A DNA stretch of 64,000 nucleotides from a virus: IMG/VR virus record IMGVR_UViG_3300048588_001019, positions 16,486 to 80,485 of that record. One strand, 5' to 3'. The translations under genes were made by a program, and so were the position numbers. Under the pieces are notes generated by a model that was not told the origin of the DNA, did no database searches, and worked only from the letters and a program-made list of their open reading frames with translations. Of the stretch, positions 7,700 to 35,085 are shown piece after piece. Positions within the stretch are counted from its first letter, which is position 1. Every line of letters starts with the position of its first letter.

Positions 7700-7980
7700 C
7701 CTTATAGGAGAAGCATCGTGAAAGCATTTCCTCTGACAATGCTAATCCGACGAAGACTGATTTGCTGGTTGAGATGGTAGGGCAGTAAAGAAATCTTAAC
7801 CTTTGGATGCCATCGAGGTGATGCTTCAAGTGTGCGCAGCCACTTCCTATATCATGGGTCAGTGGTTTGTGATTGACCATCGCAATGAGGGCAGCGGTCA
7901 ATAGATCCCCAGATAGCCAAGGATAGTGTTCCGCACTCTGAACACGCAGCGGCAATTTCCATTTGTTCCAGGATAGTAAA
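7700..7980. repeat. Scaffold repeat R1 copy A (upstream gene end + 16-bp motif + Zn-finger gene)
   Basis: Aligns with 12700-13000 (agcatcgtg...ctgacaa...aatccga...aagact; gaccatcgcaatg; ccccagat.gcca) and with 13160-13310. Confidence 0.85.
7785..7800 (+). repeat. 16-bp motif copy 1 (GTAAAGAAATCTTAAC)
   Basis: One of six same-orientation matches to GTAAAGRAWTCTTAAC. Confidence 0.9.
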
Positions 7981-8040
7981 AACCAGTGCTTCAAATTCGG
8001 GTTTCGATGATTTCCTTTTGGCGAAGGTTAATGGTGACAC
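7852..8040 (-). CDS. Small CxxC-x13-CxxC zinc-finger protein, copy A
   Basis: CSECGTLSLAIWGSIDRCPHCDG; paralog at 12858-13055 conserves the Cys residues and LSLAIWG. Confidence 0.7.
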   Translation of the reverse strand: MSPLTFAKRKSSKPEFEALVFTILEQMEIAAACSECGTLSLAIWGSIDRCPHCDGQSQTTDP

Positions 8041-8294
8041 TCCTAATCAATCATCTTCAGAAGTGTTGAGCTAGGGAGGTGGATCATTACAGTATGTCAG
8101 ACCCAAAGGGTAGGAAATTGATTTCATCCGCGGAATTGTGAGTTGCTTACCAAAGAAGTATCCAGGCAACGTCTTGTATTTCGCTCAGCACAGAACATAG
8201 CCCCTACAGAGTATTTATTAAACAATCGAAAGTATTGACAATATTCAGCTGATGAAGGGGCGTGGTACCCAGGAAATATCTCAGTCGGAATTGC

Positions 8295-8321
8295 TAAAGC
8301 TTTCATCCGCTTCACCGATCC
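8295..8321 (+). promoter_or_regulatory. Putative sigma28 (FliA-type) promoter
   Basis: TAAA-N15-ACCGATCC, 37 nt upstream of the 8359 start; consensus TAAA-N15-GCCGATAA. Confidence 0.5.
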
Positions 8322-8358
8322 TTCTCTCAGATGGGTTTGCGCAAACGAGGCTTAAAAG

Positions 8359-10674
8359 ATGAAGAGTCTTCTGATATTCCTGATAGCGACCGTGATAACT
8401 TCATGCGGAGTGGACAAAAAGTCCAGTAGCGAAACGAGCGATGGATTGTCGTGCCCATCAGCGATAGTCAGTCCCGCTGTCCCGGCAGCCGCAGGTCAAT
8501 TGGTTTTCACTCTTCCCGAAACTATTGATAGCTGTTCAGTGGAAGGTTATGTCGTTGGCTATGAAGGTACTCTTAAAGTTGAGAGAACTAATGAAGGTTT
8601 TTTTGTTCTAAACAATATTCCCGCAGGCCAGCTCGACATTATTATCACAGGTAACGACGTTGGAGCAGGTTTATGGCTCGACAAGAAGGAAAAAGAGCGT
8701 GGCAAGAGGATCAAGAAAACCAAAATCCTAAATGGTGTTAAAACAGACGGCGGTGAAATCGATCTTCCTAGAATGGGCATAATTGTAGGCAAAGCAGTAC
8801 TTAATGGCCAAACAGATCATGCCGGTATTGATGTTTATGTTCCTGGTACTGAATACACTGCAAAGACAGATACTGAGGGAAAATTCTCGTTCACTGCAGT
8901 TCCAGTAGGTGAACATAACCTTTATTTTGAAAAAGATGGGTATCACCGTGGCCAGATTGAAGGGATTAAAGTTGCAGAGTCGATCGAGACGAAGCTCGAT
9001 GATTTGACATTGGTTTTGTCGACTGGAGCTGAAGGTTTCATTATTATTGAAAACGGTGCAGCTTTAGTGAATTCCAGAACTGTAAACCTCAATATTGGTG
9101 CTACGGAAGATGCTGTGCTGATGAAAATATCTGAATCAAACGTGTTCGAAGGCGTTTCTTGGAAACCAGTGAAAAGCTCCCTGCAATATGTTTTTGATAG
9201 CCAAGGTGAAAAAAAGCTATATGTAAAATTTGCAAATGCCAATGGTCTTGAAAGTTCCCCGTTCACAGATGAAGTAATTGTAGATATTTTTTCGAATGGC
9301 AGCGCGATATTTGCACCATCATATTCAGTGTCGTCTGTTGTTCCTCCCTCTAGTACCTTTACTCTTTCAAATATCGCATTGCCTGGAAATGCAACTGAAA
9401 TGATGGTTTCTACATCATCGACTTTTTCGGGAGCATCATGGGAAACGCCGACAACGAACAAACAGATTGTTTTTCCGGCAAACTATTCCAGTTGTGGCAC
9501 CAAAAAGTTCTACCTGAAATTTAAGGATTCGGATGGTTACGAGAGTCCTACTACAAGCAAAAGTGCTGATTTATTGTGCTGGGAAAGTATGTCATCGTCC
9601 GGTGCGCCAATTGTCAGTAGCGGTATTAATGGAGCGAACGGGTATCAACCCAATCCTTTACCGTGGACGGGTTCTGAGGTTTTGTTGGTTGGTTACAACT
9701 CTGGAATGTTGGGGGGGAATACCATTGGTGCAGGAGCATATAACCCTGAAACTGATACGTGGCGAAGCTTGTCTACAACCGGACACACGGGTACTTTGTT
9801 CGGCTATGTTTCGGTGCTCACTAACACTGGAAAGCTAATAACATGGGGCGGCAGTGATCTTGATGGAACGCCTCTTCATAGCGATGGAGCAATATTTTCC
9901 ATTGGCAGTAATTCTTGGACTCCAATGTCAAATATCAATTCGCCCTCTGCTAGATACAACCTGTCCGGTATTTGGACTGGTGAAACAGGTAATGCTATTA
10001 CAAGCAATCGCCTAATTTTGTGGGGTGGACAATCATATTCTTATCCAACAGATGGCTTCATATATCGAGCTGATAATGATAGTTGGTCGTCAATCAATTC
10101 TACAAATGCTCCTCAAGCAAGGTCATCAGCGAATATTACCTGGGCCAGTAATAACATGATCGTTTGGGGTGGGTATAGCACGTGTCCTGGTTGTCAACCA
10201 ATTAACGATGGGGGTCTGTATGATCCGTCAAATGACACCTGGACAGCGACTGCTATCGGGCCGACAGCAAGATACGGTCATGCATTTGTGAAGACTTCCG
10301 ATGATGAAATATTTGTGTGGGGTGGATTCGCGCCAAATGGCCTCTCAGTTTTTGCCGATGGAATGATCTTTACGCCATCTACAAATTCTTGGAGATCAAT
10401 TTCAAGTACTGGGGCACCTTTGCCAAGAGGTAATGTTGCAGCAGTCGCATTGGACAATGGGAGAGTTTTCGTGTTCGGTGGTCAAGATGCTGCCAGCGGT
10501 TGCTTCAATACGACTGGTGCAATTTATGATTCAAGAGCCAACACATGGACTTCGGTCACCTACGGAGACACAGCACTCGATAGATCGGGGTGTGCGCAGT
10601 ATTACTTATCTTGGACCGGGTCAAAGGTGGTGATTTGGGCATTGGATCGTGGGGTTATTTTTAGTCCTTTTTGA
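8359..10674 (+). CDS. Surface lipoprotein with carboxypeptidase-regulatory-like/Ig-like domains and a Kelch-type beta-propeller
   Basis: Lipobox VITSC; TDTEGKFSFTAVPVGEHNLYFEKDGY; repeated WGG...DG..Y.P...W blades. Confidence 0.85.
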   Translation: MKSLLIFLIATVITSCGVDKKSSSETSDGLSCPSAIVSPAVPAAAGQLVFTLPETIDSCSVEGYVVGYEGTLKVERTNEGFFVLNNIPAGQLDIIITGNDVGAGLWLDKKEKERGKRIKKTKILNGVKTDGGEIDLPRMGIIVGKAVLNGQTDHAGIDVYVPGTEYTAKTDTEGKFSFTAVPVGEHNLYFEKDGYHRGQIEGIKVAESIETKLDDLTLVLSTGAEGFIIIENGAALVNSRTVNLNIGATEDAVLMKISESNVFEGVSWKPVKSSLQYVFDSQGEKKLYVKFANANGLESSPFTDEVIVDIFSNGSAIFAPSYSVSSVVPPSSTFTLSNIALPGNATEMMVSTSSTFSGASWETPTTNKQIVFPANYSSCGTKKFYLKFKDSDGYESPTTSKSADLLCWESMSSSGAPIVSSGINGANGYQPNPLPWTGSEVLLVGYNSGMLGGNTIGAGAYNPETDTWRSLSTTGHTGTLFGYVSVLTNTGKLITWGGSDLDGTPLHSDGAIFSIGSNSWTPMSNINSPSARYNLSGIWTGETGNAITSNRLILWGGQSYSYPTDGFIYRADNDSWSSINSTNAPQARSSANITWASNNMIVWGGYSTCPGCQPINDGGLYDPSNDTWTATAIGPTARYGHAFVKTSDDEIFVWGGFAPNGLSVFADGMIFTPSTNSWRSISSTGAPLPRGNVAAVALDNGRVFVFGGQDAASGCFNTTGAIYDSRANTWTSVTYGDTALDRSGCAQYYLSWTGSKVVIWALDRGVIFSPF

Positions 10675-11015
10675 TACTCAACGGGATTACGTGCGAGCTG
10701 ATAAACTCAGAAAAAATGCGCGAAATCAAATCCATTGTATGCCTTGATAAGAAATGTTGTGTGGGCTTTAGTGATCTGTATGTATTGTCGTATTTTCTAT
10801 CTGATGGTTGAATAGCGTGTATCGCCTTCATATCTGCGACTACAATATATTAATAGAAATATCTAAACTGCACAATAACCGGGCATCGTATGGGTAACAA
10901 CCCTATTTGGGTCCTTCATGGCAGGGGGGCCTCACTAGCTGGCTGATTCCTTTTCTTTGCGGAAGAAAATCAGGGGTATGTTCGGTGGCATTAAGAGGAT
11001 TTGTCGAACCACAGC

Positions 11016-12344
11016 TTAGCCGGCAGAATCAAGATCCCAATGTTCTGCAAGAAAGGCATCTCTGACTTTTTCTCGCTCTCGCTCGTATGCTCTGAACTTT
11101 TCAACATCCTCCAAGACACTGCGCATTCCGTGAGCCCGTATAGAAACGAGCAACGATCTGCCCCAGAACAATATCTGCATAGCAAACCCAATCCCAAAAG
11201 AACCCAAAAGGCAGACGCTTGTGTATTGTTTTAGCCCAAGATTAGGCAAGTTCAATGCAATTATCGAGCCTGCTGTGAAGGCTGCTGTTGAAGCCATGCT
11301 GCCAAGCCAGACAGCCCAAGGGAATCGTTTGTCAGAGTCGACGATCCATGCCGACAAATGAGCATGCGCAAATCCAAGTCCGCGAGTAAGGATATCGTCC
11401 TTGGTTGTCAAATTGAATGCACTTCCACAAAGGGCATAGGAGTATGCTACACCGGGTGCAGAGTTGAATCCCAACGATACACACCTTTCTGCGATCGATG
11501 CTGAAACCATTGAAATTCCGCCGCCAAGGCTATGTCCGACAGTAAGAATAAATTCCGCCGCCTCAGAATCACATTTTTTTAGGATTTCCCTCGTTGCAAC
11601 TTCATAACGATGATGACGCGTTACCAAAGAAGGAAATCTGAAAGCCAATTCATTCCAAAAAAGATGAAATACGTACGTCACGGCTATCATCCAGAGGAGT
11701 ATGAAGAAAGTCTTCTTAAAATCGGAGACTGAATAACTTGAATAGTATAGACCAGTTGCCAGGATAAAACTCGACACCACAAGAAGAGTAGTGCACATCA
11801 AGATCGGGAGGACAGGTATCAAGCGCATAGCATTGGTGAACGAAATCTCGCCCCGGAGCAGCATCAAATTTTGCCTCCAATTTGAAATAGAAGGCACGGT
11901 GCCTCGGACTACCACAATCCTATGTCTGCCCCCATTGGCTTTAAAAACCCACGCTTTCAACTTCTTCTCTGGAATGTAGCATCGCGAAAAACTTTCGGGA
12001 ATTTTTTCAATCAGTTCCTTATCGAGTTCATCATAGTATACGGCATCAGACAGCAATGCACAGCGTTCAACGACATCCAGATTCTCTCGTTTGAATTTGT
12101 TGACAATCCATCTCAACTCTTCTCTTCGCTCTGCAAAGGAGAGTTTAGTTAAACGCTCTTGTTGTGGTTTCTCCGTTCTCAAAGCGTTTCTACTAAGCAC
12201 TTCCTCGATTGTTCGGAAATGCCCGACTATGTCGTCGGCTATGTACGGCATGTTCTCTCCAGGCGAGAAATTGAATGTAAGAGATAATTGTAAGCCACCT
12301 AGCCAAAGTCGGTAGTAAAGATTTTCGGTTTTCAAACTCTGCAT
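11016..12344 (-). CDS. Class 3 lipase-like alpha/beta hydrolase with transmembrane insertions (probable start 12251)
   Basis: VVVRGT oxyanion motif, GHSLGGG nucleophile elbow, FNSAPG, DD and a C-terminal His (AHGM); two pairs of hydrophobic helices. Confidence 0.8.
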   Translation of the reverse strand: MQSLKTENLYYRLWLGGLQLSLTFNFSPGENMPYIADDIVGHFRTIEEVLSRNALRTEKPQQERLTKLSFAERREELRWIVNKFKRENLDVVERCALLSDAVYYDELDKELIEKIPESFSRCYIPEKKLKAWVFKANGGRHRIVVVRGTVPSISNWRQNLMLLRGEISFTNAMRLIPVLPILMCTTLLVVSSFILATGLYYSSYSVSDFKKTFFILLWMIAVTYVFHLFWNELAFRFPSLVTRHHRYEVATREILKKCDSEAAEFILTVGHSLGGGISMVSASIAERCVSLGFNSAPGVAYSYALCGSAFNLTTKDDILTRGLGFAHAHLSAWIVDSDKRFPWAVWLGSMASTAAFTAGSIIALNLPNLGLKQYTSVCLLGSFGIGFAMQILFWGRSLLVSIRAHGMRSVLEDVEKFRAYEREREKVRDAFLAEHWDLDSAG

Positions 12345-12699
12345 TCATATAATTAACCATACCCCAGTATATTGGCTTTCCAGGCACCTGCATTCTTACA
12401 GACCAGAGGATTGTGATGGGATGAAGTTTTCGAGTTGATGAGCGTTTGATCACCACGTGTGCGACAACTACTGAACCAAGACTCAACTCCGATAGGATCC
12501 CTTAGCTCAGACGGCACCGGATGACAGCTGCGGCCCGACAGTCTAAATGGGTAGCAAAAAATGCGGGTCTTAACACACTGATTCTATGAATAAAAAAAAC
12601 TTCTCTGTGACGGTAGTCGGGTGGATTTAGTGAGGGCGCTTTTCCTAAGTGTTCTGTGAATCCTAGTGAATGTGGGCTTCAGGATAGTTTGTTGAGAAG

Positions 12700-13000
12700 G
12701 CCTTTTGGGATGAGCATCGTGGTGCATATCCCCCTGACAACACGAATCCGAGCAAGACTCATTTTGTTAAGCAGCAGGCAGGGTTATGGCGGTAAAGGAT
12801 TCTTAACCTGCGAAAGGATGTCGGAGCCACGCCTCAAGCTTCCACAGGTTGTCTTCATCACGGGTTTGTTGATTGCGACTGACCATCGCAATGTGGACAA
12901 GGTCCTGTTGCTCCCCAGATTGCCAGTGATAGCTTCCCGCAGTCGGGGCACGCTGCATCGAATTGCATTTGTTCGAGGAGCGATGTTACTTGCTTTTCAT
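12700..13000. repeat. Scaffold repeat R1 copy B
   Basis: Diverged direct repeat of 7700-7980; contains motif copy 2 at 12792-12807. Confidence 0.85.
12792..12807 (+). repeat. 16-bp motif copy 2 (GTAAAGGATTCTTAAC)
   Basis: Followed by second box gcctcaagcttcc. Confidence 0.9.
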
Positions 13001-13055
13001 GGTCGATCATCATTTTATTTCCTTTGAAAGGGTTATCGTTGACCCATTCAATCAA
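12858..13055 (-). CDS. Small zinc-finger protein, copy B
   Basis: CPDCGKLSLAIWGATGPCPHCDG. Confidence 0.7.
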   Translation of the reverse strand: MIEWVNDNPFKGNKMMIDHEKQVTSLLEQMQFDAACPDCGKLSLAIWGATGPCPHCDGQSQSTNP

Positions 13056-13159
13056 TCATTTTCCGCCTCGGTCTTCCACGGAGATGAACTGGCAATAAAA
13101 TGTCTCTTGCTAAGTGACTTTCAACAAAACCCACTCTGCCTTTGAGTGTGGAATGCAGC

Positions 13160-13310
13160 CTGGCCGTAAAGAAATCTTAACCGTGCATTAGGGCCATCGA
13201 GGCGATGCTTCAAGCTTCCGCATGGCCTTGCCTCTACCGCCTATATCATGGGTTTGCAGTTTGTGATTGACCATCACAATATGGGCAATGGCCTGTGGAT
13301 CCCCAGGCAT
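13160..13310. repeat. Scaffold repeat R1 copy C (motif copy 3 at 13166-13181 + 3' half of Zn-finger gene)
   Basis: GTAAAGAAATCTTAAC...gcttcaagcttccgc; minus strand reads AWGSTGHCPYCDGQSQTANP*, with the N-terminal half missing. Confidence 0.85.
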
Positions 13311-13485
13311 GTTGGCCTTACTGCTAAGTTGATAGGGATTGACCGAGGTGCTTACTTCAGATCGGGGCAACTCAATCAGGCATGGAGGACGACGTTGCAA
13401 GAAAACTATATTAGATAAGGGATATGGTAGCGATAAATCGCTAGTCCAAAATTCCGATCTATTATAGCGTAATCTCGCTTTTTCC

Positions 13486-13812: not shown

Positions 13813-13846
13813 ATTTTTGCCTCACAATTCGGATTGATTTTTAGTG

Positions 13847-15127
13847 CTATTCTCTCGAATGTCTAGCATATTCCCAATCCAGAGTTGTCTCGCCTTTTGA
13901 CCACCAGAATGTTCTGAAAGCACGTTCAGTAAGGTTCTTAATTGTTGCGCTCCTGCTGCTTTGAATATTGTCGAGCTCTCTGTAGTAAGATTCCAACTGA
14001 AAAACATCCTCGCCTGCCTTGATTAGGTCTATTATCTTTCTAATTGACTTTGTTATGAGTTGGTTGTCGCCTTTTTTTTCCACATAGCTTCCTAGAGATG
14101 CCATCATAGGAATCAAAAACGTACTGGTGCTGTTTGGCAGGATGTTCATGTACTTTGGTTCTTCAGTGTCTTCATAGAATCGATGAATGACCGGGTGAAG
14201 CTCATTTGTAATCATGGCGACTGCTTTGCAAACTTCGTCAAGCTTCTCGTCGACTATATCCTCTTCTTCCTTTATGCTCCAAAATAAAGAATCCGTCGAA
14301 GTGCTCTTAGAAAGCATATGATTTCTTTCCAAGAACGCTTGAATAGCCATAATAAGCTCAGCACCTACAAATTGATTTCTCTTCGATCCTGTATGCGAGT
14401 CTTTCAAGAAAGTTGCACCATGGCTCTTCTCGAGGTTCTGAAGTATGTTATGCTGCATTATTTCAAGTTGGTGGTTGAGAGACATGCGCTTTTGCGCGGT
14501 GTTGAAAATTATCATATATTTCAATAAATCTTTGATTTCTAGGTTATAATATACTTCCAATCTGATGTGCGCATTCAATACACGGTCTAAGACGCCTTTG
14601 TCCAAATGGGGCTGAAACTCTTCGAACTCAACGGGTTTCAAAATACCTTGCTCAATTATCTTTTCTTTGTGAATAGCAAGATAGAAAGCTATCAAAAAGC
14701 ACGCATATCTTTGCAAACCGTCAATGATGGATACTTTGTAATCACCACGTGCAAAAGCCTGAATATCAAATTTAGATAGCTTAGCGGAATCCTTGAGAAC
14801 GGCTACTCGTAATTCTGGTATTAGATGTCCATCGAGAATTGAGATTACAAGCTTTTTGTAGATCTTATCCGTCAAATGGTTTTGGAGCTTGCGTTGAAAG
14901 AAATTTTCCTTCAAGCTGGCAATTGGAATGAGTGCATGTAGATAAGTATGAACATGGGTTACAATGGCCCCAGTTCTTATATCCCTGAGATTTCTGTCTG
15001 TGCTGATCTCCCAAAAATCAACTGTATTCCGCGATCTCTTGGACGGCGAAGGTACGTTCTGGGTAGTTTGCTCAATCAACGAAAATAATGCTCTTTGCTT
15101 TTCATCAGATGTAAGATTTTTTTTCAT
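13847..15127 (-). CDS. ParB/Srx-like (DUF262/DndB-related) DGxQR-motif protein
   Basis: FFQRKL...IPEL...IIDGLQR...IFNTAQK motif order typical of ParB-like NTPase domains. Confidence 0.7.
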   Translation of the reverse strand: MKKNLTSDEKQRALFSLIEQTTQNVPSPSKRSRNTVDFWEISTDRNLRDIRTGAIVTHVHTYLHALIPIASLKENFFQRKLQNHLTDKIYKKLVISILDGHLIPELRVAVLKDSAKLSKFDIQAFARGDYKVSIIDGLQRYACFLIAFYLAIHKEKIIEQGILKPVEFEEFQPHLDKGVLDRVLNAHIRLEVYYNLEIKDLLKYMIIFNTAQKRMSLNHQLEIMQHNILQNLEKSHGATFLKDSHTGSKRNQFVGAELIMAIQAFLERNHMLSKSTSTDSLFWSIKEEEDIVDEKLDEVCKAVAMITNELHPVIHRFYEDTEEPKYMNILPNSTSTFLIPMMASLGSYVEKKGDNQLITKSIRKIIDLIKAGEDVFQLESYYRELDNIQSSRSATIKNLTERAFRTFWWSKGETTLDWEYARHSRE

Positions 15128-15138
15128 TGCTAAACCTT

Positions 15139-19795: not shown

Positions 19796-19802
19796 TTGCA
19801 GG

Positions 19803-20621: not shown

Positions 20622-20636
20622 TCATCGGCTCCCGGA

Positions 20637-21812: not shown

Positions 21813-22165
21813 CGTTTTCTTCCTGTCAAGAATTCTGAAAGTAGCTTTGCTATTTCATTCTATCATCAACGGAATGCTAAGAAAGGAAGTGGGCATTTTA
21901 TTCCTACTGTTTATGCTTGGCTTTGTGTGGTGCGTTAGAAGGAATTGATTGTTTCGATTCCGTAATTGACTGAAAGGAAAAGCAAAATTTAAAGGCAGCC
22001 TTAAACGTTTCACGCATATAGTCGTGGAGCTCAAGGACACGATGAATTAGCCCTCTTCCTGTGCGCTACGCTGAACTTCGCCCGAGAATAAGCCATTTGC
22101 TGGATGCCTGTTTTTTAAAGAATGTTTTGGATTTGGCGATGATGGTGCAAGAGAATAAGTATTAA

Positions 22166-22317
22166 GGGTCCTTCCTTGGGCTATATTTGCAAGGTTGACG
22201 ATCAACCGCCCGCTCCCGCTTGGTTTCAAAAAAAATTTGCGTCACCGGCACCACTTGCCTTCGTGAACGTCTTCAGCTGAAAGACTTCCAGATTAATTCC
22301 TGGTAAATTTGTGGACA
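22166..22317 (+). repeat. Second copy of the prophage cos-like packaging region
   Basis: GGGTCCT at 22166, dyad GGTTGA-CGA-TCAACC at 22193, then about 125 bp nearly identical to 43810-43933. Confidence 0.85.
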
Positions 22318-22429
22318 CTGCGTCTACCTGCTGGATGCTTTGAGTGGACAGAGAATGCTCGGTTGAGCCAAACACCGGGACGTCAAAAGCAATCGGCCTG
22401 ATAGCCATGGCGCTGCTACGAAGGCTAGT

Positions 22430-22603
22430 GATAAGCGCAGAGGAGGTCCTGCAGTGTTGCAGTTGAATACGATGATTCAACAGAGGCTCTGATTATCCGC
22501 AACACCTGGAGGTGAGGATTGGGGCGAATACGGCTATGGATACCTGCACTATGCCTTCATCGAGCATCCGAAGCGGTCCGGAGATTTCTGGACCATCCGT
22601 TAA
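22430..22603 (+). pseudogene. Degenerate C1 (papain-like) cysteine peptidase 3' remnant
   Basis: Frameshifted translation GGPAV..AVEYDDSTEALIIRNTW/GEDWGEYGYGYLHYAFIEHPKRSGDFWTIR* matches GGHAV.AVGYDD...IRNSWG..WG..GY...DFWTIR. Confidence 0.7.
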
Positions 22604-23064
22604 ATCTGTCGAGGCCTGTATGCTGATAATCGTTGTGATTGACGACAATCGTACTGACAACTGGTCAGTGGCTGAGATGATCGAGGAGATCAATCGTCTC
22701 AGGCAGGCTTTGAATCAAACGACTCAGCAGGCAACCAAATCCCTCAAGGCAGACATGCAATCCCGTTTCACCCTGCGCAAAAACTGGGCTCAAAAAGGGA
22801 TTCGATTCGATCGGGCAAATCAGGATAGTCTTCAGTCCCGGGTCTTCTCAATAGATCCCTGGCTTGTGAAACAGGAGGAGGGCGAGACGTATAAGCCCTC
22901 TGGCCATGTTGCGATCCCGAAAGCGGCCCGTCTGTCAGATAAGTCCCTTATTCCGAGCTCCATGTTTCCAAATGCTTTGCGCGGCCGTAAGGATGTCTTC
23001 GCATTCGACTTCTCGAAGAACTTATCCTGGAAGCCTTGGAGTTGCCCCCGGCAAAACATACACA

Positions 23065-23817
23065 TCAATCAGCTGATATAGTTCGGCGATATTCTCGCGG
23101 TGACATCATCTTTAGGCCCTTGTGCGGGGCGTTTTCGTTGTAATCTTCAAACCATGCCGGCAGTTGACAGAGGATATCCTCTTCAGACTTCAGGTCACTA
23201 AGATAGGCGTAATCGCGCTTGAAAGTCTTGACGAACGCTTCGGCCATTCCATTGCTTTCAGGGCTATAAGGGGCTGTTGTGCAGACTTCAAAGCCAAGTC
23301 GCCTGCCGAATTCAACCGTGTCCCTGGCAACGTAACAAGGCCCATTGTCGCTGAGCCACTGCAGGGCGCGAGGAACTCTGGTCAGGCCTTGAAATCTCTT
23401 CTCAAGCGCTTCAGTCATGAGATCCCGGATCATTTCACCGGAGATGCCCTTCGTTGATGCGATCCAGGTTATGACTTCGCGATCGTGGCAGTCAAGTACA
23501 AACGCGATTTGAACGAGATCTCCGTTCCAGCAGCGCAGCCCGAAGGTATCTGAACACCATCGCAGATTGCTTTTCAGAGTAATGATTTTGCCATCATGAG
23601 TGCGGGTTGGTCTTGTTCCGTGCCTAGCCAATAGCATCCCGCTGGCCTTCATTATTCGATAAACCCGCTTGTGATTGACGGACTGGAATCCTGACGACTG
23701 AAGCTCCTTGGAGAGAAGTCGGGTTACGCGTCGATAACCATAGGACGATTTACGGGAGACAATTTCCTTGATCAAAGGCAATAGGCGAGCATCGTCAGCT
23801 CTTTGAACTGGCTTCAT
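23065..23817 (-). CDS. IS3-family transposase OrfB (DDE)
   Basis: YGYRR, NHKRVYR, WCSD, SDNG, NGMAEAFVKTFK. Confidence 0.95.
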   Translation of the reverse strand: MKPVQRADDARLLPLIKEIVSRKSSYGYRRVTRLLSKELQSSGFQSVNHKRVYRIMKASGMLLARHGTRPTRTHDGKIITLKSNLRWCSDTFGLRCWNGDLVQIAFVLDCHDREVITWIASTKGISGEMIRDLMTEALEKRFQGLTRVPRALQWLSDNGPCYVARDTVEFGRRLGFEVCTTAPYSPESNGMAEAFVKTFKRDYAYLSDLKSEEDILCQLPAWFEDYNENAPHKGLKMMSPREYRRTISAD

Positions 23818-23888
23818 AGCGGTCTCTTCCTGATTGAGACGATGGATTAAGTTTGAACGGGATACTTCGAGAGTGTCAGAGATTCGCT

Positions 23889-24278
23889 TTACTCGAAATC
23901 GTCCACCCCTTGCAATGGCATGCGCGAGATCAGTTTTTTTTCACGACCGATTCGGACGGCTTCCTTAAGAATCTCAACCTCTTCAGTCTTGCGTCCAAGA
24001 AGGCGTTCAAGCCGCTTGACGCGGTCCTCGAGCTTCTTCATTTCGCTCTCTGGAATCACACGCTCCTCGGATCCCACACCTGTCAAAGCTCCATTTTCCA
24101 TCGCTCGCCTCCAACTGAAGAGCTGGTTGGGAGCTATACCATGCTTGCGGGCAACCAAGGAAACCGACATTGCGGGTTGGTAAGTCTCATCCACGATTGC
24201 CTTTTTCTCTTCGGGGGACCAGCGACGACGACGTTGGGGACTGGTCAGAACTTCAACCCGGGACTTGGTGTTAGTCAT
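23889..24278 (-). CDS. IS2-like transposase OrfA (HTH)
   Basis: RRRRWSPEEK...SVSLVARKHGIAPNQLFSWRR. Confidence 0.93.
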   Translation of the reverse strand: MTNTKSRVEVLTSPQRRRRWSPEEKKAIVDETYQPAMSVSLVARKHGIAPNQLFSWRRAMENGALTGVGSEERVIPESEMKKLEDRVKRLERLLGRKTEEVEILKEAVRIGREKKLISRMPLQGVDDFE

Positions 24279-24679
24279 AGTGTTGGTCTTACTCCTAGTT
24301 GTTAGGAGCTGACCGAAGTGTATGGTCTAAACAGGGGCTACTACAAGCCTTATCATCATAATGGAATTTTTCAGCGGCTGAGGGGCAGCAAACATTTGCG
24401 GTTTCTCTATCTGCTCAAAGACAAAAAGACGACGTTAGCACGCTGGCAATTCAGCGAGCAGGTAGAGGGCGTGGTCGATGAATACTTCGAAAAATACTCT
24501 GCAATGGAAGTGGAATTAGTCGCGGACCGCAAAGCTTATTCTAAATGGGAGAGGATATAAACGACGGTAGTTCTAACTGAGAAACGAAAGGTTAATCAAG
24601 AAGATTAGGCCACACATCTAACCCTGGAATGTAAGACGTGTGGCACTCTGAATTCAAATTTCCGAACTTAGAATGACTT

Positions 24680-28879: not shown

Positions 28880-29659
28880 TCAGCCTGCTAGACGTAATCC
28901 CTTTGTCTCTGCAAATTTGCTTGGCGTCATTCCTCCCAGAGAGGTGTGAGGCCTTCTTTCGTTGTAATCGATCCGCCAGTCTTCGATGATGCCTCGGGCA
29001 TCTTTCAGATTCGAAAACCAGTACATGTTCAGGCATTCATCCCGAAGGCGTCCATTAAAGCTCTCGATAAACGCGTTCTCGTTTTTCTCTCCAGGGCTTG
29101 CGAAGTGAAGCCTAACTCCGTTGTCCAAAGCCCATTTTGTGAGAGCTTTGCTGATGAATTCCGGGCCCTGGTCAACGCCGATTTCCTCCGGCAATCCCCG
29201 TTCGGCTTTCAACTTCTCCAGGACGCGAACAACGCGATGCCCGGAAAGGGATGTATCAATTTCCATCGCTGGACACTCGCGCGACCATTCGTCGATGATC
29301 GTGAGAATCCTGAACGACCGACCGCTTGCAAGATTGTCGTGCACGAAGTCCATCGACCAACGGGAATTGGCTTTGGTAAGCGGCGGCAGCGGGTTCTCGG
29401 GCTTATAAACCCGACGCTTTGGCTTTCGCTTCTTGAGCTGCAACCCGTTTCCATAATATATGCGCTCGGTGCGCTTATGATTTTTGACAAGGCCTTCACT
29501 TCGCAGTACGAGGTGTACGCGGGGGCATCCGAATCGCGGACGCTCTTCGAGCAGATTCTTCATCCTATCAAGGATTTGGTGGTCCTCGGCCGGCTTTTTC
29601 TCATATCGAACGGTGGAACGGTCTGCGCCCACTATCTTACAGGCCCGACGCTGGCTCAT
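28880..29659 (-). CDS. IS407-group transposase OrfB
   Basis: WSMDF, DQGPEF, NAFIESFNGRLRDECLN. Confidence 0.95.
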   Translation of the reverse strand: MSQRRACKIVGADRSTVRYEKKPAEDHQILDRMKNLLEERPRFGCPRVHLVLRSEGLVKNHKRTERIYYGNGLQLKKRKPKRRVYKPENPLPPLTKANSRWSMDFVHDNLASGRSFRILTIIDEWSRECPAMEIDTSLSGHRVVRVLEKLKAERGLPEEIGVDQGPEFISKALTKWALDNGVRLHFASPGEKNENAFIESFNGRLRDECLNMYWFSNLKDARGIIEDWRIDYNERRPHTSLGGMTPSKFAETKGLRLAG

Positions 29660-29709
29660 GCCGAAGGCTTCCTGGACAAGCTCAACGGCTTTGCGCTCCT
29701 CGTCAGGCC

Positions 29710-29976
29710 CTAGAACTTTTTTTCGAGGAGAAACTTGATGGCTTGGATGTCAAGTGCCTGATCCGCCACGATTTGCTTCAATCGACGGTTTTCATCTTCC
29801 AGTGCCTTAAGCTTCTGGGCTTCTGAGACTTCCAGGCCTCCGTATTTGGCCTTCCACTTGTAAAAAGCCTGCTGGCTGATACCAAGGTCGCGGCAGATGT
29901 CCTGAACCTTCTCGCCCGCTTCCTGGCGCTTCAGAGCTTTGATAATTTGTTCTTCCGTGAAACGACTCTTCTTCAT
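29710..29976 (-). CDS. IS407-group transposase OrfA
   Basis: MKKSRFTEEQII...WKAKYGG...LEDENRRLK. Confidence 0.95.
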   Translation of the reverse strand: MKKSRFTEEQIIKALKRQEAGEKVQDICRDLGISQQAFYKWKAKYGGLEVSEAQKLKALEDENRRLKQIVADQALDIQAIKFLLEKKF

Positions 29977-30423
29977 ACGAATCTCCCTGCTGTGCTCAGT
30001 GACACAGGAGATTCAACTTATCAATGGAGGAATTTGACGGGGTACCCTCGGTCCGGCATGCACATCCTATACTCGGTAAAATGGTCTCCACCCAAATGTA
30101 TTCAGGAGAAGTCAGGCGCAGGGGGGTGCTGAGTGATTCACTGTCGGAGTTAAGTGAATATTTTTCGTTGTCGGAATTCGTGCTTTCTGTGCGATTGAAG
30201 CAGCTAAAGTGGAGAATCACAAAGAATCCTGGAAACCAAAACTTTTTAATAAACATATTGCCGCCTTTAAACCGTATATGAGGACGGTTCGGGCGAGAGT
30301 CTTTTCTGATAAACTTACAATTTCGTATTTATAAGGGGTACTGGGGAGTCCACTAAACAGGATGGCCTAAAGTCGGGTAATCATGAAATATTGGTTTTGT
30401 TCAGATCATAGCAACCCTTGTCG

Positions 30424-30439
30424 GTAAAGGAATCTTAAC
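30424..30439 (+). repeat. 16-bp motif copy 4 (GTAAAGGAATCTTAAC)
   Basis: Followed by gcctcaggcctccgc and then by a 5'-truncated gene duplicate. Confidence 0.9.
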
Positions 30440-30490
30440 TGCGAAATCCCAGCGTGGCGATGCCTCAGGCCTCCGCAGGAACTTCCCCAC

Positions 30491-30776
30491 CGATAAGTCT
30501 CTCATTCCCCGGTCGATGTTTCCAAATGCGTTGCGCGGCCGTAAGGATGTCTTCGCGTTAGACTTCTCGAAGAGCTCATGCTGGAAGTCTTATCCTCACA
30601 ATGGGATCTTTCAGCGCGTGAGGGGCGGGCAGCAAGTTAGGATTCTTTTTCTGCTCAAGGATAAAAAGACGACGCCGACTCGCTGGCAATTCAGCGAGCG
30701 GGTGGAGAAGGTGGTCGATGAATACTTTGATCGCTACTACGATGACGATGAACTCGATAGTCCATTAAGGCCGTGA
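30491..30776 (+). pseudogene. Diverged duplicate of the 3' half of the gpZ-like gene (scaffold repeat R3)
   Basis: DKSLIP.SMFPNALRGRKDVFA.DFSK...HNGIFQR.RG...LLKDKKTT..RWQFSE matches 22938-23036 + 24351-24500. Confidence 0.85.
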
Positions 30777-30807
30777 GAGCTAGGCGACCAATCTCAGATA
30801 GCAGTCC

Positions 30808-31050
30808 ATAAAAAAGGGCCCGCATCAAAAGCCGATTAAGCTATACACTCGGCCGATTCTGAGCCACAGGGATGTTGGCGACGTCGTTTATGATCCTTTC
30901 GCGGGATCCGGAGTGATCTTTAGAGCTGCGTAGGTGACCGGACGGATTGCGCTGGGTTTCGAGATCGAGCCGCACTTTTGCGGAAGGATCATTGAGCGCC
31001 TGAAAGTGCAGTACAGCCTTAGAGCAAAAATTGTTGGAAGCGTGTTTGAC
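30808..31050 (+). pseudogene. N4/N6 DNA methyltransferase C-terminal remnant
   Basis: HQKPIKL...GDVVYDPFAGSG.IFRAA*VTGRIALGFEIEPHFC, with an internal stop. Confidence 0.8.
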
Positions 31051-31072
31051 TGCAAAAGCCTGCCTAGGGCCG

Positions 31073-31088
31073 GTAAAGAATTCTTAAC
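31073..31088 (+). repeat. 16-bp motif copy 5 (GTAAAGAATTCTTAAC)
   Basis: Followed by gcctcaagcttccgg. Confidence 0.9.
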
Positions 31089-31553
31089 CAACGAAAGGTC
31101 GTCGGGGCAGTGCCTCAAGCTTCCGGTAAGTTGAATTCAGGAGAGTGTCTCCTATGCGGTCTATCGTTAATCTCCAAAGTCACCCATCTGACTGGTCACG
31201 TTTATCTCGAAATTTTTCTTAACCCAAGGCATTAAATTGACCGTATACTGATACAATGGAAGTATTTCTGGAAGATAACATGCGCTTCGCCTGTTTAAGC
31301 AATTCTTGGCAGATGCAGATGCAGGTACAGCCGAAATCAAAACGGACTTCAGGTACGCACTTTGGGCCCGATCTGTTGTATTTAACAACTTCAGGAGGTT
31401 CGCAATCCTGTCGGTTAATGCTAGCTGCTTTTTCCGCCATACATTCGGTGAAAAATACGCGGATATCTACCTCCCGAGCATATCAGAAAGCCGAACCGTT
31501 CAGGTGACATTTGTTTGTTAGATAAACTCCGCGACTGAACTGAAACCTATTGA

Positions 31554-33446
31554 GTGGATGATGTGATGAGCAAAGTATTTCTTCGCAATTTGCGCTTCTT
31601 CTTAATTCTAATTTGTGCAGTCAAGCCCTCACTGGGGTCTGCCTTCGCTGAGGCTCAGCCAATTCGTAACTTTCATATGGCAGAGATCAAAGATGAATCA
31701 CTTTCTATCGAAGCCATTATAAGGGAAAAGGACTCCCTGTCCTGGAACAAAGTCAGTGATACGGCTGCGAATTTTTATAGAGGGGACACACGAAATGTCG
31801 TCAGATTTAAGTTACAACAACTCGAGTATGATGAGATTGTAATAAGGGTTTTTTATGCCCATATTCAAAACACTCAAGCTTTCGCGGTTGATGGAGATAA
31901 TGCTCGAGAACTTAAAGCTCTCCCTGATAGATATGCAGCCTTTCTAGTTCCTCGGGAATACATAGGTAAGGACATTTTTGTTATTCAGAAATTTTCAGGG
32001 TTTTCCATGTTTGGGCCTAGGCCTATCTTTTTTATGGATCGATATGCGTACCAAATCGACGCTGAGATGGATCGAATGTATATAGGCATAGTGTTCGGTA
32101 TTATCTTCATCATGATCGTGTACAATATAGGAATGTTCCTATTATTTCGAAAAGTCTACTTGTTACTTTACATTCTCTACTGTTTATCGGCAGCGTTTCA
32201 GTTTTCGTTCACAAGTGGTTTGACGTTAAGAGGCTCTCTTGAGGTGGGTCTGTTTTATTACATAGCATCATTTTCAAGCGGATCTTTCGCTGTATTGTTC
32301 TCGATGCATGTCTTGAACATCAAGCGAGAATCAATCTCGCTGTACCGGATTGGACTTTTTGTTCTCACGATCTCTTTTATAAGCCTGATTGGTTCCCTAT
32401 TGGGTCATCATTTTTTCGTCAAGTACTTCGTATCCCTCGCGTTTCCTGTTTTAGGATATTCCACTTTTCTTGCCGTTCGCGCAGCGTACAACGGCTATAG
32501 ACCAGCATATGCCATGCTTCTGGGTTGGTCCGGCCTTTGGCTGTCATTTGTTTTGGTCGCTATGCAGTTCTTAATATCAGGATTTCCAAATATGGGGTGG
32601 GGGCCACCTATCGCGATTTCATTTGAAATCGCTACATTTTCTTTTGCAATGGGCCAGAAGCTGAGGATGAGCGAACTCAAATTCATGAAGGAAAATCAGC
32701 ACGCTTTCGCAGAAATGGCAAAGATGGTGTACTCACATCAACTGTCGGATATCAGGCTTGGAAAGCCTTTAGAAGAAACCATGCCGACCACCACATCTCA
32801 GGCTTGTGTTCTATCTTTTGATATTATTGGATCAAGCAAAATCCAGCACGTAAACGCCAAGATATTTTTCAGAAACACGTTTACTAAGTGCAATGAAATC
32901 ATTTCTGAGGGCTACGATGGCAAGAACCTAAGAGCCAATGCTTATCGCATTAAAGAAATGGGTGACGGTTTCTTGTGCTCTATTGGGTACCCTTTTCAAG
33001 CCATGAGCAATAATCTGGCCCATGATGCAGTTGATTTGGCTAAGAGATTCGCAAAGGTCCTCCATGAAGAGCAAAAAATGCTTCATACCGAAATTCCCAC
33101 TACATGCGGGATTGGTATTGCACTGGACACAATCACGGGTTTTTATCCAGAAGCAGGAACCAAAGAATATGACCTTTATGGTCAGGCCATTGTCCTCGCT
33201 ACTCGTTACGAAGGAATGAGAAAGACGCTTTTTGAAGCGGATAAAGGTCGTTCGGTTCTTATTATTCAAGAAAAGGTTTTTCTAAGCCTGGATCCTTCGC
33301 ATAGATGTGGATTTGCTTCAATTGATCTGAAAGAACTCGGAGTCGTCGTCAGAGACGATCCCGCAGCCACTAAGCTCTACTATCAATATCTGGATCAGGA
33401 TTCGGTTGGCGAAGAGCGACCAGGAGGTCATTTAAAGGTTGTGTGA
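31554..33446 (+). CDS. 7TM-DISM receptor class III adenylate/guanylate cyclase
   Basis: Signal peptide, extracellular domain, 7 TM (GIIFIMIVYNIGMF...), cyclase motifs FDIIGSS, KEMGDG, YDLYG, LATRYE. Confidence 0.88.
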   Translation: MDDVMSKVFLRNLRFFLILICAVKPSLGSAFAEAQPIRNFHMAEIKDESLSIEAIIREKDSLSWNKVSDTAANFYRGDTRNVVRFKLQQLEYDEIVIRVFYAHIQNTQAFAVDGDNARELKALPDRYAAFLVPREYIGKDIFVIQKFSGFSMFGPRPIFFMDRYAYQIDAEMDRMYIGIVFGIIFIMIVYNIGMFLLFRKVYLLLYILYCLSAAFQFSFTSGLTLRGSLEVGLFYYIASFSSGSFAVLFSMHVLNIKRESISLYRIGLFVLTISFISLIGSLLGHHFFVKYFVSLAFPVLGYSTFLAVRAAYNGYRPAYAMLLGWSGLWLSFVLVAMQFLISGFPNMGWGPPIAISFEIATFSFAMGQKLRMSELKFMKENQHAFAEMAKMVYSHQLSDIRLGKPLEETMPTTTSQACVLSFDIIGSSKIQHVNAKIFFRNTFTKCNEIISEGYDGKNLRANAYRIKEMGDGFLCSIGYPFQAMSNNLAHDAVDLAKRFAKVLHEEQKMLHTEIPTTCGIGIALDTITGFYPEAGTKEYDLYGQAIVLATRYEGMRKTLFEADKGRSVLIIQEKVFLSLDPSHRCGFASIDLKELGVVVRDDPAATKLYYQYLDQDSVGEERPGGHLKVV

Positions 33447-33597
33447 TTATTACTTTGGCAATCCTCTGAGCGAGTAAGAGCCGAGTCACAGAGAAGATTA
33501 GCTGTTATCTGACGTCTAGTTCTGTTTCCGCAATTCTATCAACTATCTTTGTCTCTCAATATCGCGGGCTAGAGATCTCCGTAGTTAGAATGCGAGG

Positions 33598-33649
33598 AGT
33601 TGAAGGTCGGCGAATTAATCGAACTAGGTGGATCAGGGAGGTCCTATAA
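33598..33649 (+). pseudogene. Toxin C-terminal remnant (TNT/DUF4237-like ending)
   Basis: With one indel reads LKVGELIELGWIREVL*; stop overlaps the next ATG (TAATG). Confidence 0.35.
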
Positions 33650-33888
33650 TGAAACTAAACGAACTAAGGGCCAAGCTTGAAGCGGAGAATTTTCCTAACG
33701 ATACTTTCAATCTCGACGGTAACACACCGAAAAATAATGATGGAGTTTACGTTCTATCCAAAGTAGAGGATATATGGATCATACTGCTGATCGATAGGGG
33801 GAATCGCATAGAGAGATTTTCAAGCTTTTCCGAGGAGGAGGCTTGTTCGGAGTTCTATAGGCTAATGAAGAGAGACATTGGCTTCTAA
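33628..33888 (+). CDS. Orphan immunity-like protein (probable start 33649)
   Basis: MKLNELRAKLE...F.L.G...YVL....W......RG......SEEEACSEF is a typical small immunity-protein pattern. Confidence 0.6.
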   Translation: MDQGGPIMKLNELRAKLEAENFPNDTFNLDGNTPKNNDGVYVLSKVEDIWIILLIDRGNRIERFSSFSEEEACSEFYRLMKRDIGF

Positions 33889-34287
33889 CCTGCAGCCTCC
33901 GGAGGTCGACGGTATATTTCCCGCGGCAAACCCTGAACTGTTGGCGGAAATTTTGTCGCGGCATGGGTTTATCTTAGCCGTGCAAACTGAAAGGATTAAC
34001 AAGCGAGGGCGTGAGTTCTGAGAGGGATCGGTGGTTGATCGGATAATCCTCTGAGTCGATCGAAACCGAAATCCAGCCGAAAATATTTTGTCGATTGAAA
34101 TCCTCATAGCATATAATCCGGCCAAACTCGGATCGATAGTGCGGATGACCCTGGCCTTGGTCCACACGCGGTACCGACGTACTTCCATAAAATGTGCAGT
34201 CAGGTCGATTAACAAAGCCCATTTCCTCCGTTGCTGGGACGAAAGAGCGAGGAAAACATTGCATCGAAGTCCTGAATTAGATCACGC

Positions 34288-34674
34288 TCATAGTTTTAAC
34301 CGGATCAGCTTGCCGTTCTTCATCTGATACCCGTCCTTTGCCAAGTACTCGTCCAGCTTTCTTGGGATATGCAGCATGGTGTTGGGAATCTTGCTGTGTA
34401 CGAATTCCAGGGTTGGAATAATCGGGAGTATTGAATGGCGGTCGGTCCAGTTGATAGTGGCATAGGAGCGGCATAAGGCTTCATCGAGTGTTGAGATACC
34501 CGCAAGATCACACATGACTTTGTATTTCACCCAGTCGTCAGTTACGAGGCGCGCGCCAAGCGCGAACAGATCGCGAGTTTCCTTGCTTAGCAACTCCCTT
34601 TTTGACGCATTTTCCATTCCCTGCCCCATTAACCATTCATTTGTATGGTATGTGACGCGGTAGTGATTGGTCAA
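34288..34674 (-). CDS. Hypothetical protein
   Basis: 128-aa ORF with protein-like composition; no recognised motif. Confidence 0.45.
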   Translation of the reverse strand: MTNHYRVTYHTNEWLMGQGMENASKRELLSKETRDLFALGARLVTDDWVKYKVMCDLAGISTLDEALCRSYATINWTDRHSILPIIPTLEFVHSKIPNTMLHIPRKLDEYLAKDGYQMKNGKLIRLKL

Positions 34675-34864
34675 GTGGTCGATTAAACGCGTTAAAGTGG
34701 TGTGGCAAAATGGAAAGGTCTTGAAGTGTCTCGCTCATTTTCAAAACTTGCTTCAGGTGAGCGTGGTCCTTCGCTGCGAAGAAGATTCTGCGGGTGCCAA
34801 GTCAGGTGTTCAGCCTCGCGCCCTGAACTCCGAACAGAAAAACAGTCGTCAGAGCCTTTTTGTT

Positions 34865-35084
34865 GTTCTTAGGCTCAATATTCTCGGGTCTTCCGACTCC
34901 TGCTCAGGCATTGTCTCGATCCAAGGAGGACCTTATGGAAGACACAAAGACCCAACCAGTCGCAAATGAGAAGCAGGAGCAGCCTACCCAAGTTATCCAT
35001 GCTTCCGATGGATGGATTGCCGTTTTCAGAAAGAGCATTCAAGTTGGCTCTGGAGAGTTTCCTTGGAAGGTAAAGGAATCTTAA
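34865..35084 (+). repeat. Scaffold repeat R2 copy B; small ORF MEDTKTQ... (34935-35084) ending inside motif copy 6
   Basis: AAGGAGG RBS; homologous to 16165-16330. Confidence 0.8.
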
Positions 35085-35085
35085 C
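35070..35085 (+). repeat. 16-bp motif copy 6 (GTAAAGGAATCTTAAC)
   Basis: About 40 bp before the truncation point of an IS fragment. Confidence 0.9.

What the first reader, a model, noticed from the sequence alone, without database searches (positions are those of the whole stretch)
7785..35085. Six same-orientation copies of a 16-bp motif (GTAAAGRAWTCTTAAC) at cargo-module junctions
Seen: copies at 7785, 12792, 13166, 30424, 31073 and 35070, all on the + strand; I saw none in the 20-kb structural operon. Five are followed about 20-25 bp later by a second box GCYTCARGYNTSC, making a ~55-bp element. A weaker copy (GTAAATTTTCCTTAAC) lies at 8-23. The core is a quasi-palindrome and also reads as an 11-bp-spaced direct repeat (GTAA-N7-TTAA). 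Several copies sit just before abruptly truncated sequences (gene 3' half at 30491, IS fragment at 35127). Inference: a recombination or cassette site through which the prophage exchanges cargo, or the binding site of a regulator controlling cargo genes.
Basis: partly seen in the sequence, partly recalled or inferred. Interest (0 to 1): 0.8.

Follow-up and report, generated by a model that had tools for sequence, protein, structure and literature searches.

The report
Conserved junction repeat in prophage cargo
A short non-coding DNA element with an almost unchanging 18-base near-palindrome occurs six times, always in the same direction, at the seams between accessory-gene blocks of one prophage. 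It is most likely a protein-binding site at which gene blocks get joined, but its function is untested.

Summary
GTAAAGRAWTCTTAAC occurs six times on the + strand, where none is expected by chance. Five copies carry the second box 22-25 bp downstream.

The window is part of an 80.5-kb IMG/VR prophage record. An earlier, unchecked note places the host in Oligoflexia. This record is the only multi-copy holder in IMG/VR. One related phage (L109) has one true copy. The closest relative (G001) has two decayed copies.

The element (E) is non-coding and about 60-75 bp long. Rfam, folding and covariation give no sign of a structured RNA. It is not attC-like and not a simple MITE insertion.

Its ancestral setting is the spacer between a small ORF and a convergent 62-65-aa zinc-ribbon gene, at the boundary between the late operon and the cargo region. 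The core is far better conserved than its flanks. Breakpoints lie close to E's edges: at most 8 bp on the left of two copies, and +41 to +68 bp on the right of three.

Best reading (about 0.4): E is a protein-binding junction element that is retained, and probably used, when cargo modules are joined. This resembles the PeSL cassettes of T4-type phages.

No recombinase is linked to E. The low-depth public reads show no excision joint.

The parts
7777..7845 (+). Element copy c1: core 7785-7800, box 2 7823-7835. A homologous left flank (7698-7784) is shared with c2.
7852..8040 (-). Zinc-ribbon gene Zn1 (62 aa, CxxC-N13-CxxC). Its stop lies about 45 bp from box 2 of c1, and the gene converges on the element.
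12784..12850 (+). Element copy c2: core 12792-12807, box 2 12831-12843. Left flank 12699-12791 is homologous to that of c1.
12858..13055 (-). Zinc-ribbon gene Zn2 (65 aa, TTG start), 54-60% identical to Zn1. Only three database relatives were found.
13158..13226 (+). Element copy c3: core 13166-13181, box 2 13207-13219. Homology to c1 starts 4 bp left of the core.
13249..13305 (-). Remnant of a third zinc-ribbon gene. Only the C-terminal 19 codons survive (WGSTGHCPYCDGQSQTANP).
30416..30491 (+). Solo element copy c4: core 30424-30439, box 2 30462-30474. Its left flank is unrelated to the other copies. Its right edge abuts the tail-completion gene relic.
   Evidence: An X2 contig bridges it unchanged.
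30492..31065 (+). A 0.57-kb backbone relic bracketed by c4 and c5. It holds the 3' part of tail-completion gene X (30492-30821) joined to the 3' part of an N6/N4 methylase pseudogene (30825-31065).
31065..31124 (+). Solo element copy c5: core 31073-31088, box 2 31112-31124. It lies directly after the methylase relic. Homology to c2 is confined to 31071-31124.
34935..35084 (+). Small ORF (49 aa, strong RBS) whose last codons ...VKES-stop lie inside the core of c6. Its 3' half is conserved in phage L109, and relics of it form the left flanks of c1-c3 and of the G001 copies.
35062..35126 (+). Element copy c6: core 35070-35085, degenerate box 2 35114-35126.
35127..35560 (+). Internally truncated IS3 fragment abutting c6. 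It is 84% identical to 23898-24346 of the intact IS.
8..23 (+). It is probably unrelated, being part of a promoter-proximal stretch upstream of the HTH regulator gene.

Best explanation
E is a discrete non-coding junction element of about 60-75 bp. It consists of an 18-bp quasi-palindrome (GGTAAAG-N4-CTTAACC) and a second box (GCYTCAAGCTTCCGCAG). The quasi-palindrome is read here as the binding site of a dimeric or two-subunit DNA-binding protein. E originally filled the spacer between a small ORF and a convergent zinc-ribbon gene, at the point where this phage lineage's late operon ends and its cargo region begins. As cargo blocks and backbone relics were stacked between the lysis/tail-completion genes and the terminase, E was the piece that was always kept, and rearrangements ended at its edges. 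E therefore works as the seam or linker at which modules are joined. Joining would occur by short-homology or protein-assisted recombination, for which the phage carries a Sak4-like ATPase and a PD-(D/E)XK nuclease. This parallels the PeSL cassettes of T4-type phages rather than an integron-type system. What is shown: the copies, their discrete edges, the conserved core and their position at seams. What is inferred: protein binding, the identity of the binder (the co-located zinc-ribbon protein is the leading candidate) and the role in recombination.
For: 1. Core conservation. Fourteen of 16 core positions are invariant in six copies. E as a whole averages 78% column identity and the 216-bp surroundings 55%. 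The variable positions are the central 4 bp between two half-sites whose centres lie 11 bp apart.
2. Discrete edges. Right-flank homology among c1-c5 runs 36-58 bp, to the end of box 2. The left flanks of c4 and c5 lose all homology within 8 bp of the core. The right breaks are at +41 (c6), +50 (c5) and +68 (c4). The null extension score never exceeded 9.
3. Varied contexts. At least three left contexts (small ORF, methylase end, unrelated sequence) and four right contexts (zinc-ribbon gene, tail-gene relic, cyclase upstream region, IS3 fragment) surround an intact E.
4. Between phages. L109 shares the left flank and core with c6 over 87 bp at 80% identity, then diverges within about 25 bp to the right. 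There it carries different cargo upstream of its terminase.
5. Orientation. All six copies, both G001 copies and the L109 copy have the same orientation relative to the collinear backbone.
6. Co-decay. G001 has no intact zinc-ribbon gene and both its cores have 2 mismatches. G000 has two intact zinc-ribbon genes and six perfect cores.
7. Recombination genes. A PD-(D/E)XK nuclease (DUF3799) and an AAA_24 (Sak4-type) ATPase lie in the same record. Relaxed recombination by phage recombinases, and PeSL-mediated shuffling, are documented (PMC3945230, PMC2839356).
Against: There is no experimental or read-level evidence of recombination at E. The arrangement is identical in contigs of three independent public runs, and no joints were seen, though depth was only 1-3x. 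The recurring relics of the tail-completion and methylase genes show that unequal exchange in backbone homology could have multiplied E passively. Sixteen to 18 bp of identity is short for homologous recombination. The right-hand breakpoints are not at one fixed nucleotide. The sample is small: three phages and nine copies. The proposed binder is untested, and the zinc-ribbon protein has no informative homologue or confident model.
Confidence: 0.4

Rival explanations
1. E is purely an operator or roadblock site. The 18-mer binds a regulator, such as the zinc-ribbon protein, that silences or insulates cargo transcription. The copies multiplied passively with duplicated backbone segments, and E plays no part in recombination.
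For: The palindromic half-sites lie one helical turn apart around a variable centre. The core and the zinc-ribbon gene decay together in G001. Backbone relics recur next to E. Dispersed palindromic sites for one global regulator are known on plasmids such as RK2 (KorB/KorA); this comparison is from my own knowledge.
Against: The sites are not at a consistent distance from any gene start: 111 to about 570 bp, on either strand. They overlap no sigma-70-like promoter. An operator does not explain the uniform orientation, the co-conserved box 2, or why breakpoints lie close to the element's edges.
Confidence: 0.25
2. E is a dedicated site-specific recombination site, att-like or cassette-type. A recombinase (the phage tyrosine integrase with the Xis-like protein, or an unknown enzyme guided by the zinc-ribbon protein) integrates and excises cargo cassettes at E.
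For: Direct repeats bound the modules. Two short intervals, 374 bp (c2-c3) and 649 bp (c4-c5), look like cassettes. Homology breaks occur on either side of the core (c1/c3 on the left, c6/L109 on the right). An integrase N-terminus and an excisionase-like gene lie at 63114-64000.
Against: No recombinase lies beside the array, and the record has no resolvase. The central 4 bp differ among copies (AAAT, GATT, GAAT, AATT), which would block strand exchange between most pairs if crossover is central. The flanks are 25-45% diverged, so the events are old. No joints appear in public reads. attC features are absent. The composite element is absent from genome, viral and metagenome collections apart from this lineage.
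Confidence: 0.15
3. E is a miniature non-autonomous mobile element, MITE-like or REP-like, that inserts near gene 3' ends.
For: E has discrete ends of about 65 bp. The solo copies c4 and c5 have unrelated flanks on both sides. c5 and c6 sit at or on stop codons. The ends show a weak 7-8-bp inverted match (GCGGTAAAG / CTTCCGC), seen by eye.
Against: No target duplication is visible. At c4 and c6 the truncated right neighbour has no complementary half on the left, so these are not simple insertions. There is no cognate transposase. Only nine copies exist in three phages, and no other record carries the element. The right ends vary by 27 bp.
Confidence: 0.08
4. E acts as RNA: a 3'-UTR element, small RNA or terminator of the zinc-ribbon or small-ORF transcripts.
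For: E lies 3' of convergent genes. The core can form a 6-7-bp hairpin, and a 5-bp hairpin with a 3-nt loop can form in front of box 2.
Against: Rfam gives nothing at gathering or permissive thresholds. Folding energies are no better than shuffles (z from -1.6 to +1.4). No pair changes on both sides, and the covariation score is below the shuffled mean. No terminator-like site overlaps E. The hairpins are AT-rich and weak.
Confidence: 0.07

Closest known systems
PeSL (promoter-early stem-loop) mobile regulatory cassettes of T4-type phages (PMC2839356, PMC4122927)
   Same: Both are short (about 50-70 bp) conserved composite motifs repeated in the hyperplastic, accessory-gene regions of a phage. 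They flank novel ORFs, and insertions, deletions and replacements between relatives end at them. No dedicated recombinase is known for either.
   Different: PeSLs are a strong sigma-70-type promoter plus a terminator hairpin, and their mini-circles have been demonstrated. E has no promoter-like or terminator-like signal. It has a protein-site-like quasi-palindrome instead, sits in a temperate prophage and bounds modules of up to 17 kb. No circles have been observed.
Integron attC sites and gene cassettes
   Same: Both are same-orientation short sites at the 3' ends of ORFs, separating promoterless or heterologous modules. The core ends in TCTTAAC, one base off RYYYAAC.
   Different: There is no paired GTTRRRY core at 50-130 bp in 4 of 6 copies. 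Neither strand folds better than shuffles. There is no intI-type integrase. Module sizes range from 0.4 to 17 kb.
Conserved boundary or linker sequences of lambdoid phages, and relaxed recombination by phage Rad52/Sak4-type recombinases (PMC3945230)
   Same: Both are islands of conserved sequence between otherwise diverged modules that serve as crossover points. The record encodes a Sak4-type ATPase and a PD-(D/E)XK nuclease.
   Different: Those linkers are usually gene ends or regulatory sites present once per genome. Here one phage holds six copies, with a core conserved well beyond what crossover alone requires.
Dispersed palindromic sites of plasmid or phage global DNA-binding proteins (RK2 KorB/KorA operators, N15 dispersed centromere repeats). 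This comparison is from my own knowledge and was not checked in a paper here.
   Same: Both show several copies of a 13-18-bp palindrome scattered over a mobile genome and bound by one element-encoded protein.
   Different: Those sites are symmetric and orientation-free, and lie in promoters or act in partition. E has a fixed asymmetry, a co-oriented second box and a position at seams. No ParB/KorB-type gene was seen.

Membership tests
Integron attC | Inverse core RYYYAAC and core GTTRRRY lie 50-130 bp apart and form an imperfect hairpin in one strand. | tested here: not met
   GTTRRRY occurs downstream in only 2 of 6 copies, at unrelated distances. Single-strand folds are no better than shuffles.
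Integron attC | An intI tyrosine recombinase with attI and Pc lies beside the array. | tested here: not met
   PF00589 finds nothing in the record. Only the N-terminus of a phage integrase is present, at the far end (63341-64000).
T4-type PeSL | A sigma-70-like early promoter joined to a terminator stem-loop. | tested here: not met
   No promoter-like or terminator-like site overlaps any copy.
T4-type PeSL | Indels and replacements between close relatives end at the motif, and circles form between neighbouring motifs. | tested here: inconclusive
   Breakpoints lie close to E within the record and against L109. No joints were found, but the reads were short 1-3x Logan contigs.
MITE / REP-type miniature mobile element | Terminal inverted repeats, target-site duplication, and many copies in the host genome. 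| tested here: not met
   Only a weak 7-8-bp end match exists and there is no duplication. c4 and c6 are not simple insertions. The composite pattern is absent from 185,579 species genomes apart from one chance hit. The host genome itself could not be searched.
Xer/dif-type site (IMEX, pdif modules) | Two 11-bp arms around a 6-8-bp centre, with a conserved XerD arm. | tested here: not met
   The core is 7-4-7 and shows no resemblance to the dif arms as I recall them. This was a comparison by eye of the sequences, and the dif consensus comes from memory.
Known RNA family (Rfam 15) | A match to a covariance model. | tested here: not met
   There are no hits at gathering score and only chance-level hits at E up to 5.
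Operator of the neighbouring HTH (immunity-type) regulator | The site lies in the regulator's promoter and changes together with the regulator among relatives. | tested here: not met
   The regulator has its own paired palindromes: TGTTTCA-N2-TGAAACA in G000 and TGATTCA-N2-4-TGAATCA in G001.

The most novel reading that the evidence does not exclude
E is the recombination site of a so far undescribed cargo-exchange system of temperate phages. A small zinc-ribbon protein, alone or with the phage integrase and Xis, recognises the asymmetric 18-mer and directs capture and excision of defence and toxin modules at the boundary between the late operon and the cargo region.
Probability: 0.12. Interest if true: 0.8.

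Novelty: new variant of a known kind. Interest (0 to 1): 0.45.

Why it matters
The cargo between the copies includes McrBC, a Dcm methylase, an Rhs toxin, a lipoprotein toxin operon, nucleotide cyclases and Abi-type genes. How temperate phages collect and swap such defence and toxin modules is still mostly inferred from mosaic patterns. A short, well-defined sequence that marks the seams, possibly together with a cognate small protein, would give a handle that can be tested by binding assays, inverse PCR and mutation of the 18-mer. It would do so in a poorly studied host group. If E is only a passively duplicated regulatory site, it is still a useful marker for tracing how this prophage was assembled, but it has limited general interest.

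Tried and rejected
- Coding. The spacing between core and box 2 varies (22, 23 or 25 bp), and stops occur in all + frames of c1 and c3, so E is non-coding. Only c6 overlaps a real ORF end.
- Structured RNA. Rfam, RNA and DNA folds and covariation were all negative.
- Promoter or terminator. No promoter-like or terminator-like site overlaps any copy.
- attC features are absent.
- Resolvase or integrase next to the array: none.
- HTH regulator as the binder: rejected, because it has its own operators.
- Half-sites elsewhere occur only at chance level.
- An analogous dispersed motif in relatives G001-G004: none.
- Function of the zinc-ribbon protein. Pfam gave only sub-threshold zinc-ribbon hits and PHROGs gave none. 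The protein atlas was uninformative. The AlphaFold model had pLDDT 54 and was not used for a fold search.
- Public reads. No RNA holder is listed. DNA holders are short low-depth contigs without joints.
- Host genome. No Oligoflexia host genome could be scanned.
- Resemblance of box 2 (TTCCGCAG) to the 33-bp repeat flanking the zinc-ribbon gene in G002. The orientation is opposite and only 8 bp match, so I treat it as chance.


Full report
**The observation**

The pattern GTAAAGRAWTCTTAAC has six exact matches, all on the + strand, at the stated coordinates. None occurred in 100 shuffles. Relaxing to three mismatches adds only the reverse reading of the same sites and two chance-level hits.

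The window is bases 16486-80485 of an 80,485-bp IMG/VR virus record, estimated 97% complete. The whole record adds one variant, a perfect palindrome GGTTAAGATTTCTTAACC at G000:14861.

Five copies carry GCYTCARGYNTSC 22-25 bp downstream. The sixth has a degenerate version.

The spacing differs by 1-3 bp between copies, and c1 and c3 have stops in the + frames. The element, called E below, is therefore non-coding. The exception is c6, where the last codons of a 49-aa ORF (...VKES-stop) lie inside the core.

**The setting**

The record is a temperate phage.
- The left part holds replication and recombination genes, among them a PD-(D/E)XK nuclease and an AAA_24/Sak4-type ATPase. It also holds a papain-type peptidase, a tail-completion gene (X, phrog_1924) and an N6/N4 methylase.
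- On the right, the small and large terminase subunits start at 44047 and 44654. The structural genes follow, then an excisionase-like gene and an integrase N-terminus cut off by the record end.
- In between lie about 44 kb of cargo: a PT-TG lipoprotein toxin operon, a Kelch lipoprotein, McrBC, a Dcm methylase, an Rhs toxin, two IS3 elements, nucleotide cyclases, and AbiTii, DUF3800 and NERD proteins.
I did not test that.

**What E is attached to**

Copies c1 and c2 lie about 45 bp beyond the stop of paralogous 62-65-aa zinc-ribbon genes on the minus strand. c3 lies beside a 19-codon remnant of a third such gene.

A self-comparison of the record and anchored extensions from the core (null maximum 9) give two groups of flanks.
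- Right-flank homology links c1-c5. It reaches 36-58 bp, to the end of box 2, and in c1-c3 continues into the zinc-ribbon gene.
- Left-flank homology of 47-132 bp links c1 with c2, and links c3, c6, the two G001 copies and L109.

The left flank is the 3' end of the small ORF that is intact only at c6. The ancestral unit was therefore: small ORF, then E, then a convergent zinc-ribbon gene.

In relative G002 the backbone order is tail-completion gene, Dcm methylase, zinc-ribbon gene, cargo, HTH regulator. This places the unit at the boundary between late operon and cargo.

c5 lies directly after a methylase relic. c4 and c5 bracket a 0.57-kb relic made of the 3' ends of X and the methylase.

**Discrete edges**

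c4 and c5 are solo copies. Their left flanks lose all similarity within 8 bp of the core.

The right breaks of c6, c5 and c4 are at +41, +50 and +68. At c4 the next base belongs to the interior of gene X. At c6 it belongs to the interior of an IS3. Contigs from other public runs continue past exactly these two points with the missing parts.

Left and right neighbours do not complement each other, so these are not simple insertions of E into X or into the IS.

Fourteen of 16 core positions are invariant. E averages 78% column identity and the wider surroundings 55%. The variable positions are the central four bases between the half-sites GGTAAAG and CTTAACC, whose centres are 11 bp apart. This is the usual look of a site bound by a protein dimer. 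It argues against strand exchange in the centre, because the centres differ between most copies.

**Distribution**

- The composite pattern is absent from 185,579 species genomes apart from one chance hit in a Streptococcus. It is also absent from IMG/VR and from the JGI metagenome contigs.
- The 16-mer followed by a pyrimidine occurs once in each of 109 IMG/VR stretches. Among the 151 fetched stretches none holds two copies. Only one, L109, shows similarity beyond the core.
- L109 is a related phage with 64-68% DNA identity in the structural genes. Its copy has the same orientation relative to the backbone. It shares 87 bp (small-ORF end plus core) with c6, then diverges into different cargo, a restriction-modification system, about 6 kb upstream of its terminase.
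- The closest relative is G001, with 84-90% identity over the structural half. It has two copies in its own cargo region, in the same orientation. Their cores have 2 mismatches, and it has no intact zinc-ribbon gene.
- Relatives G002-G005 have no copy and no analogous dispersed motif.

**What E is not**

- Not a known RNA family.
- Not more stable than shuffles as RNA or as single-stranded DNA.
- Not supported by covariation: no pair changes on both sides.
- Not overlapped by promoter-like or terminator-like signals.
- Not attC-like.
- Not next to any recombinase.
- Not the operator of the neighbouring HTH regulator. That regulator has its own paired palindromes, which differ between G000 and G001.

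**Reads**

Three public metagenome runs from different studies hold this phage at 1-3x as short contigs identical to the window. Contigs from X2 bridge c4 and c5 unchanged. No joints were reported. This shows that the arrangement is stable. At this depth it says nothing about rare excision.

**Interpretation**

The best-supported statements are these.
- The core is a selected protein-binding site.
- E is a discrete unit that survives while everything around it is replaced.
- Rearrangements end at its edges far more often than a bystander sequence would predict.

I therefore read E as a junction element at which modules are joined. The nearest functional analogue is the PeSL of T4-type phages (PMC2839356). 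Phage-encoded relaxed recombination (PMC3945230) is a plausible engine.

The zinc-ribbon protein is the leading candidate binder. It is co-located with E in three copies, and gene and core decay together in G001. This is inference only. The protein has just three database relatives and no informative family or model.

Passive multiplication through unequal exchange in the X and methylase homology is a serious alternative for part of the copy number. A pure operator reading cannot be excluded either.

Noticed in passing
window about 52-105 (G000:16537-16590): Two parS-like palindromes, TGTTTCATTTGAAACA and TGTTTCAAATGAAATA, lie upstream of the HTH regulator gene (G000:15708-16403, minus strand). 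G001 has a different pair, TGATTCA-N2-4-TGAATCA, at the same place. They look like immunity operators whose specificity has diverged between the lineages.
   Followed up: partly
L003:9892-9924 and 10189-10221 (phage G002): The zinc-ribbon gene of G002 is flanked by a 33-bp direct repeat (88% identical). The first copy is the 3' end of the Dcm gene. The gene therefore looks like a 297-bp insertion that duplicated or replaced the methylase 3' end.
   Followed up: partly
window 63114-64000: An excisionase-like HTH gene (63114-63368) is followed by the N-terminal 220 codons of an integrase that runs off the record. G001 has a full tyrosine integrase at the same end. The att site is therefore outside the record.
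   Followed up: partly
window 23037-24346 and 22146-24490: A second copy of the peptidase-end and tail-completion segment is split by an IS3 insertion. An 84%-identical piece of the same IS abuts c6.
   Followed up: partly
window 44654-46540 (terminase), internal zinc knuckle: The first zinc knuckle of the small zinc-ribbon proteins (C..CG.LSLAIW) weakly resembles a knuckle inside the GpA-type large terminases of this phage group (CLSCGEMQVLVW). tblastn E-values are 0.04-0.1, so this may be a generic zinc-ribbon pattern.
   Followed up: no
window 44047-44697: The + strand ORF upstream of the large terminase is the small terminase subunit (phrog_57, E 1e-14). The longer overlapping minus-strand ORF 43843-44607 is probably spurious.
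   Followed up: partly
G000:13864-14066 and 15005-15132 (left of the window): A further pair of relics, the 3' ends of gene X and of the methylase, brackets one cargo gene and the palindromic variant site at G000:14861. The same two backbone ends recur three times in the record.
   Followed up: partly
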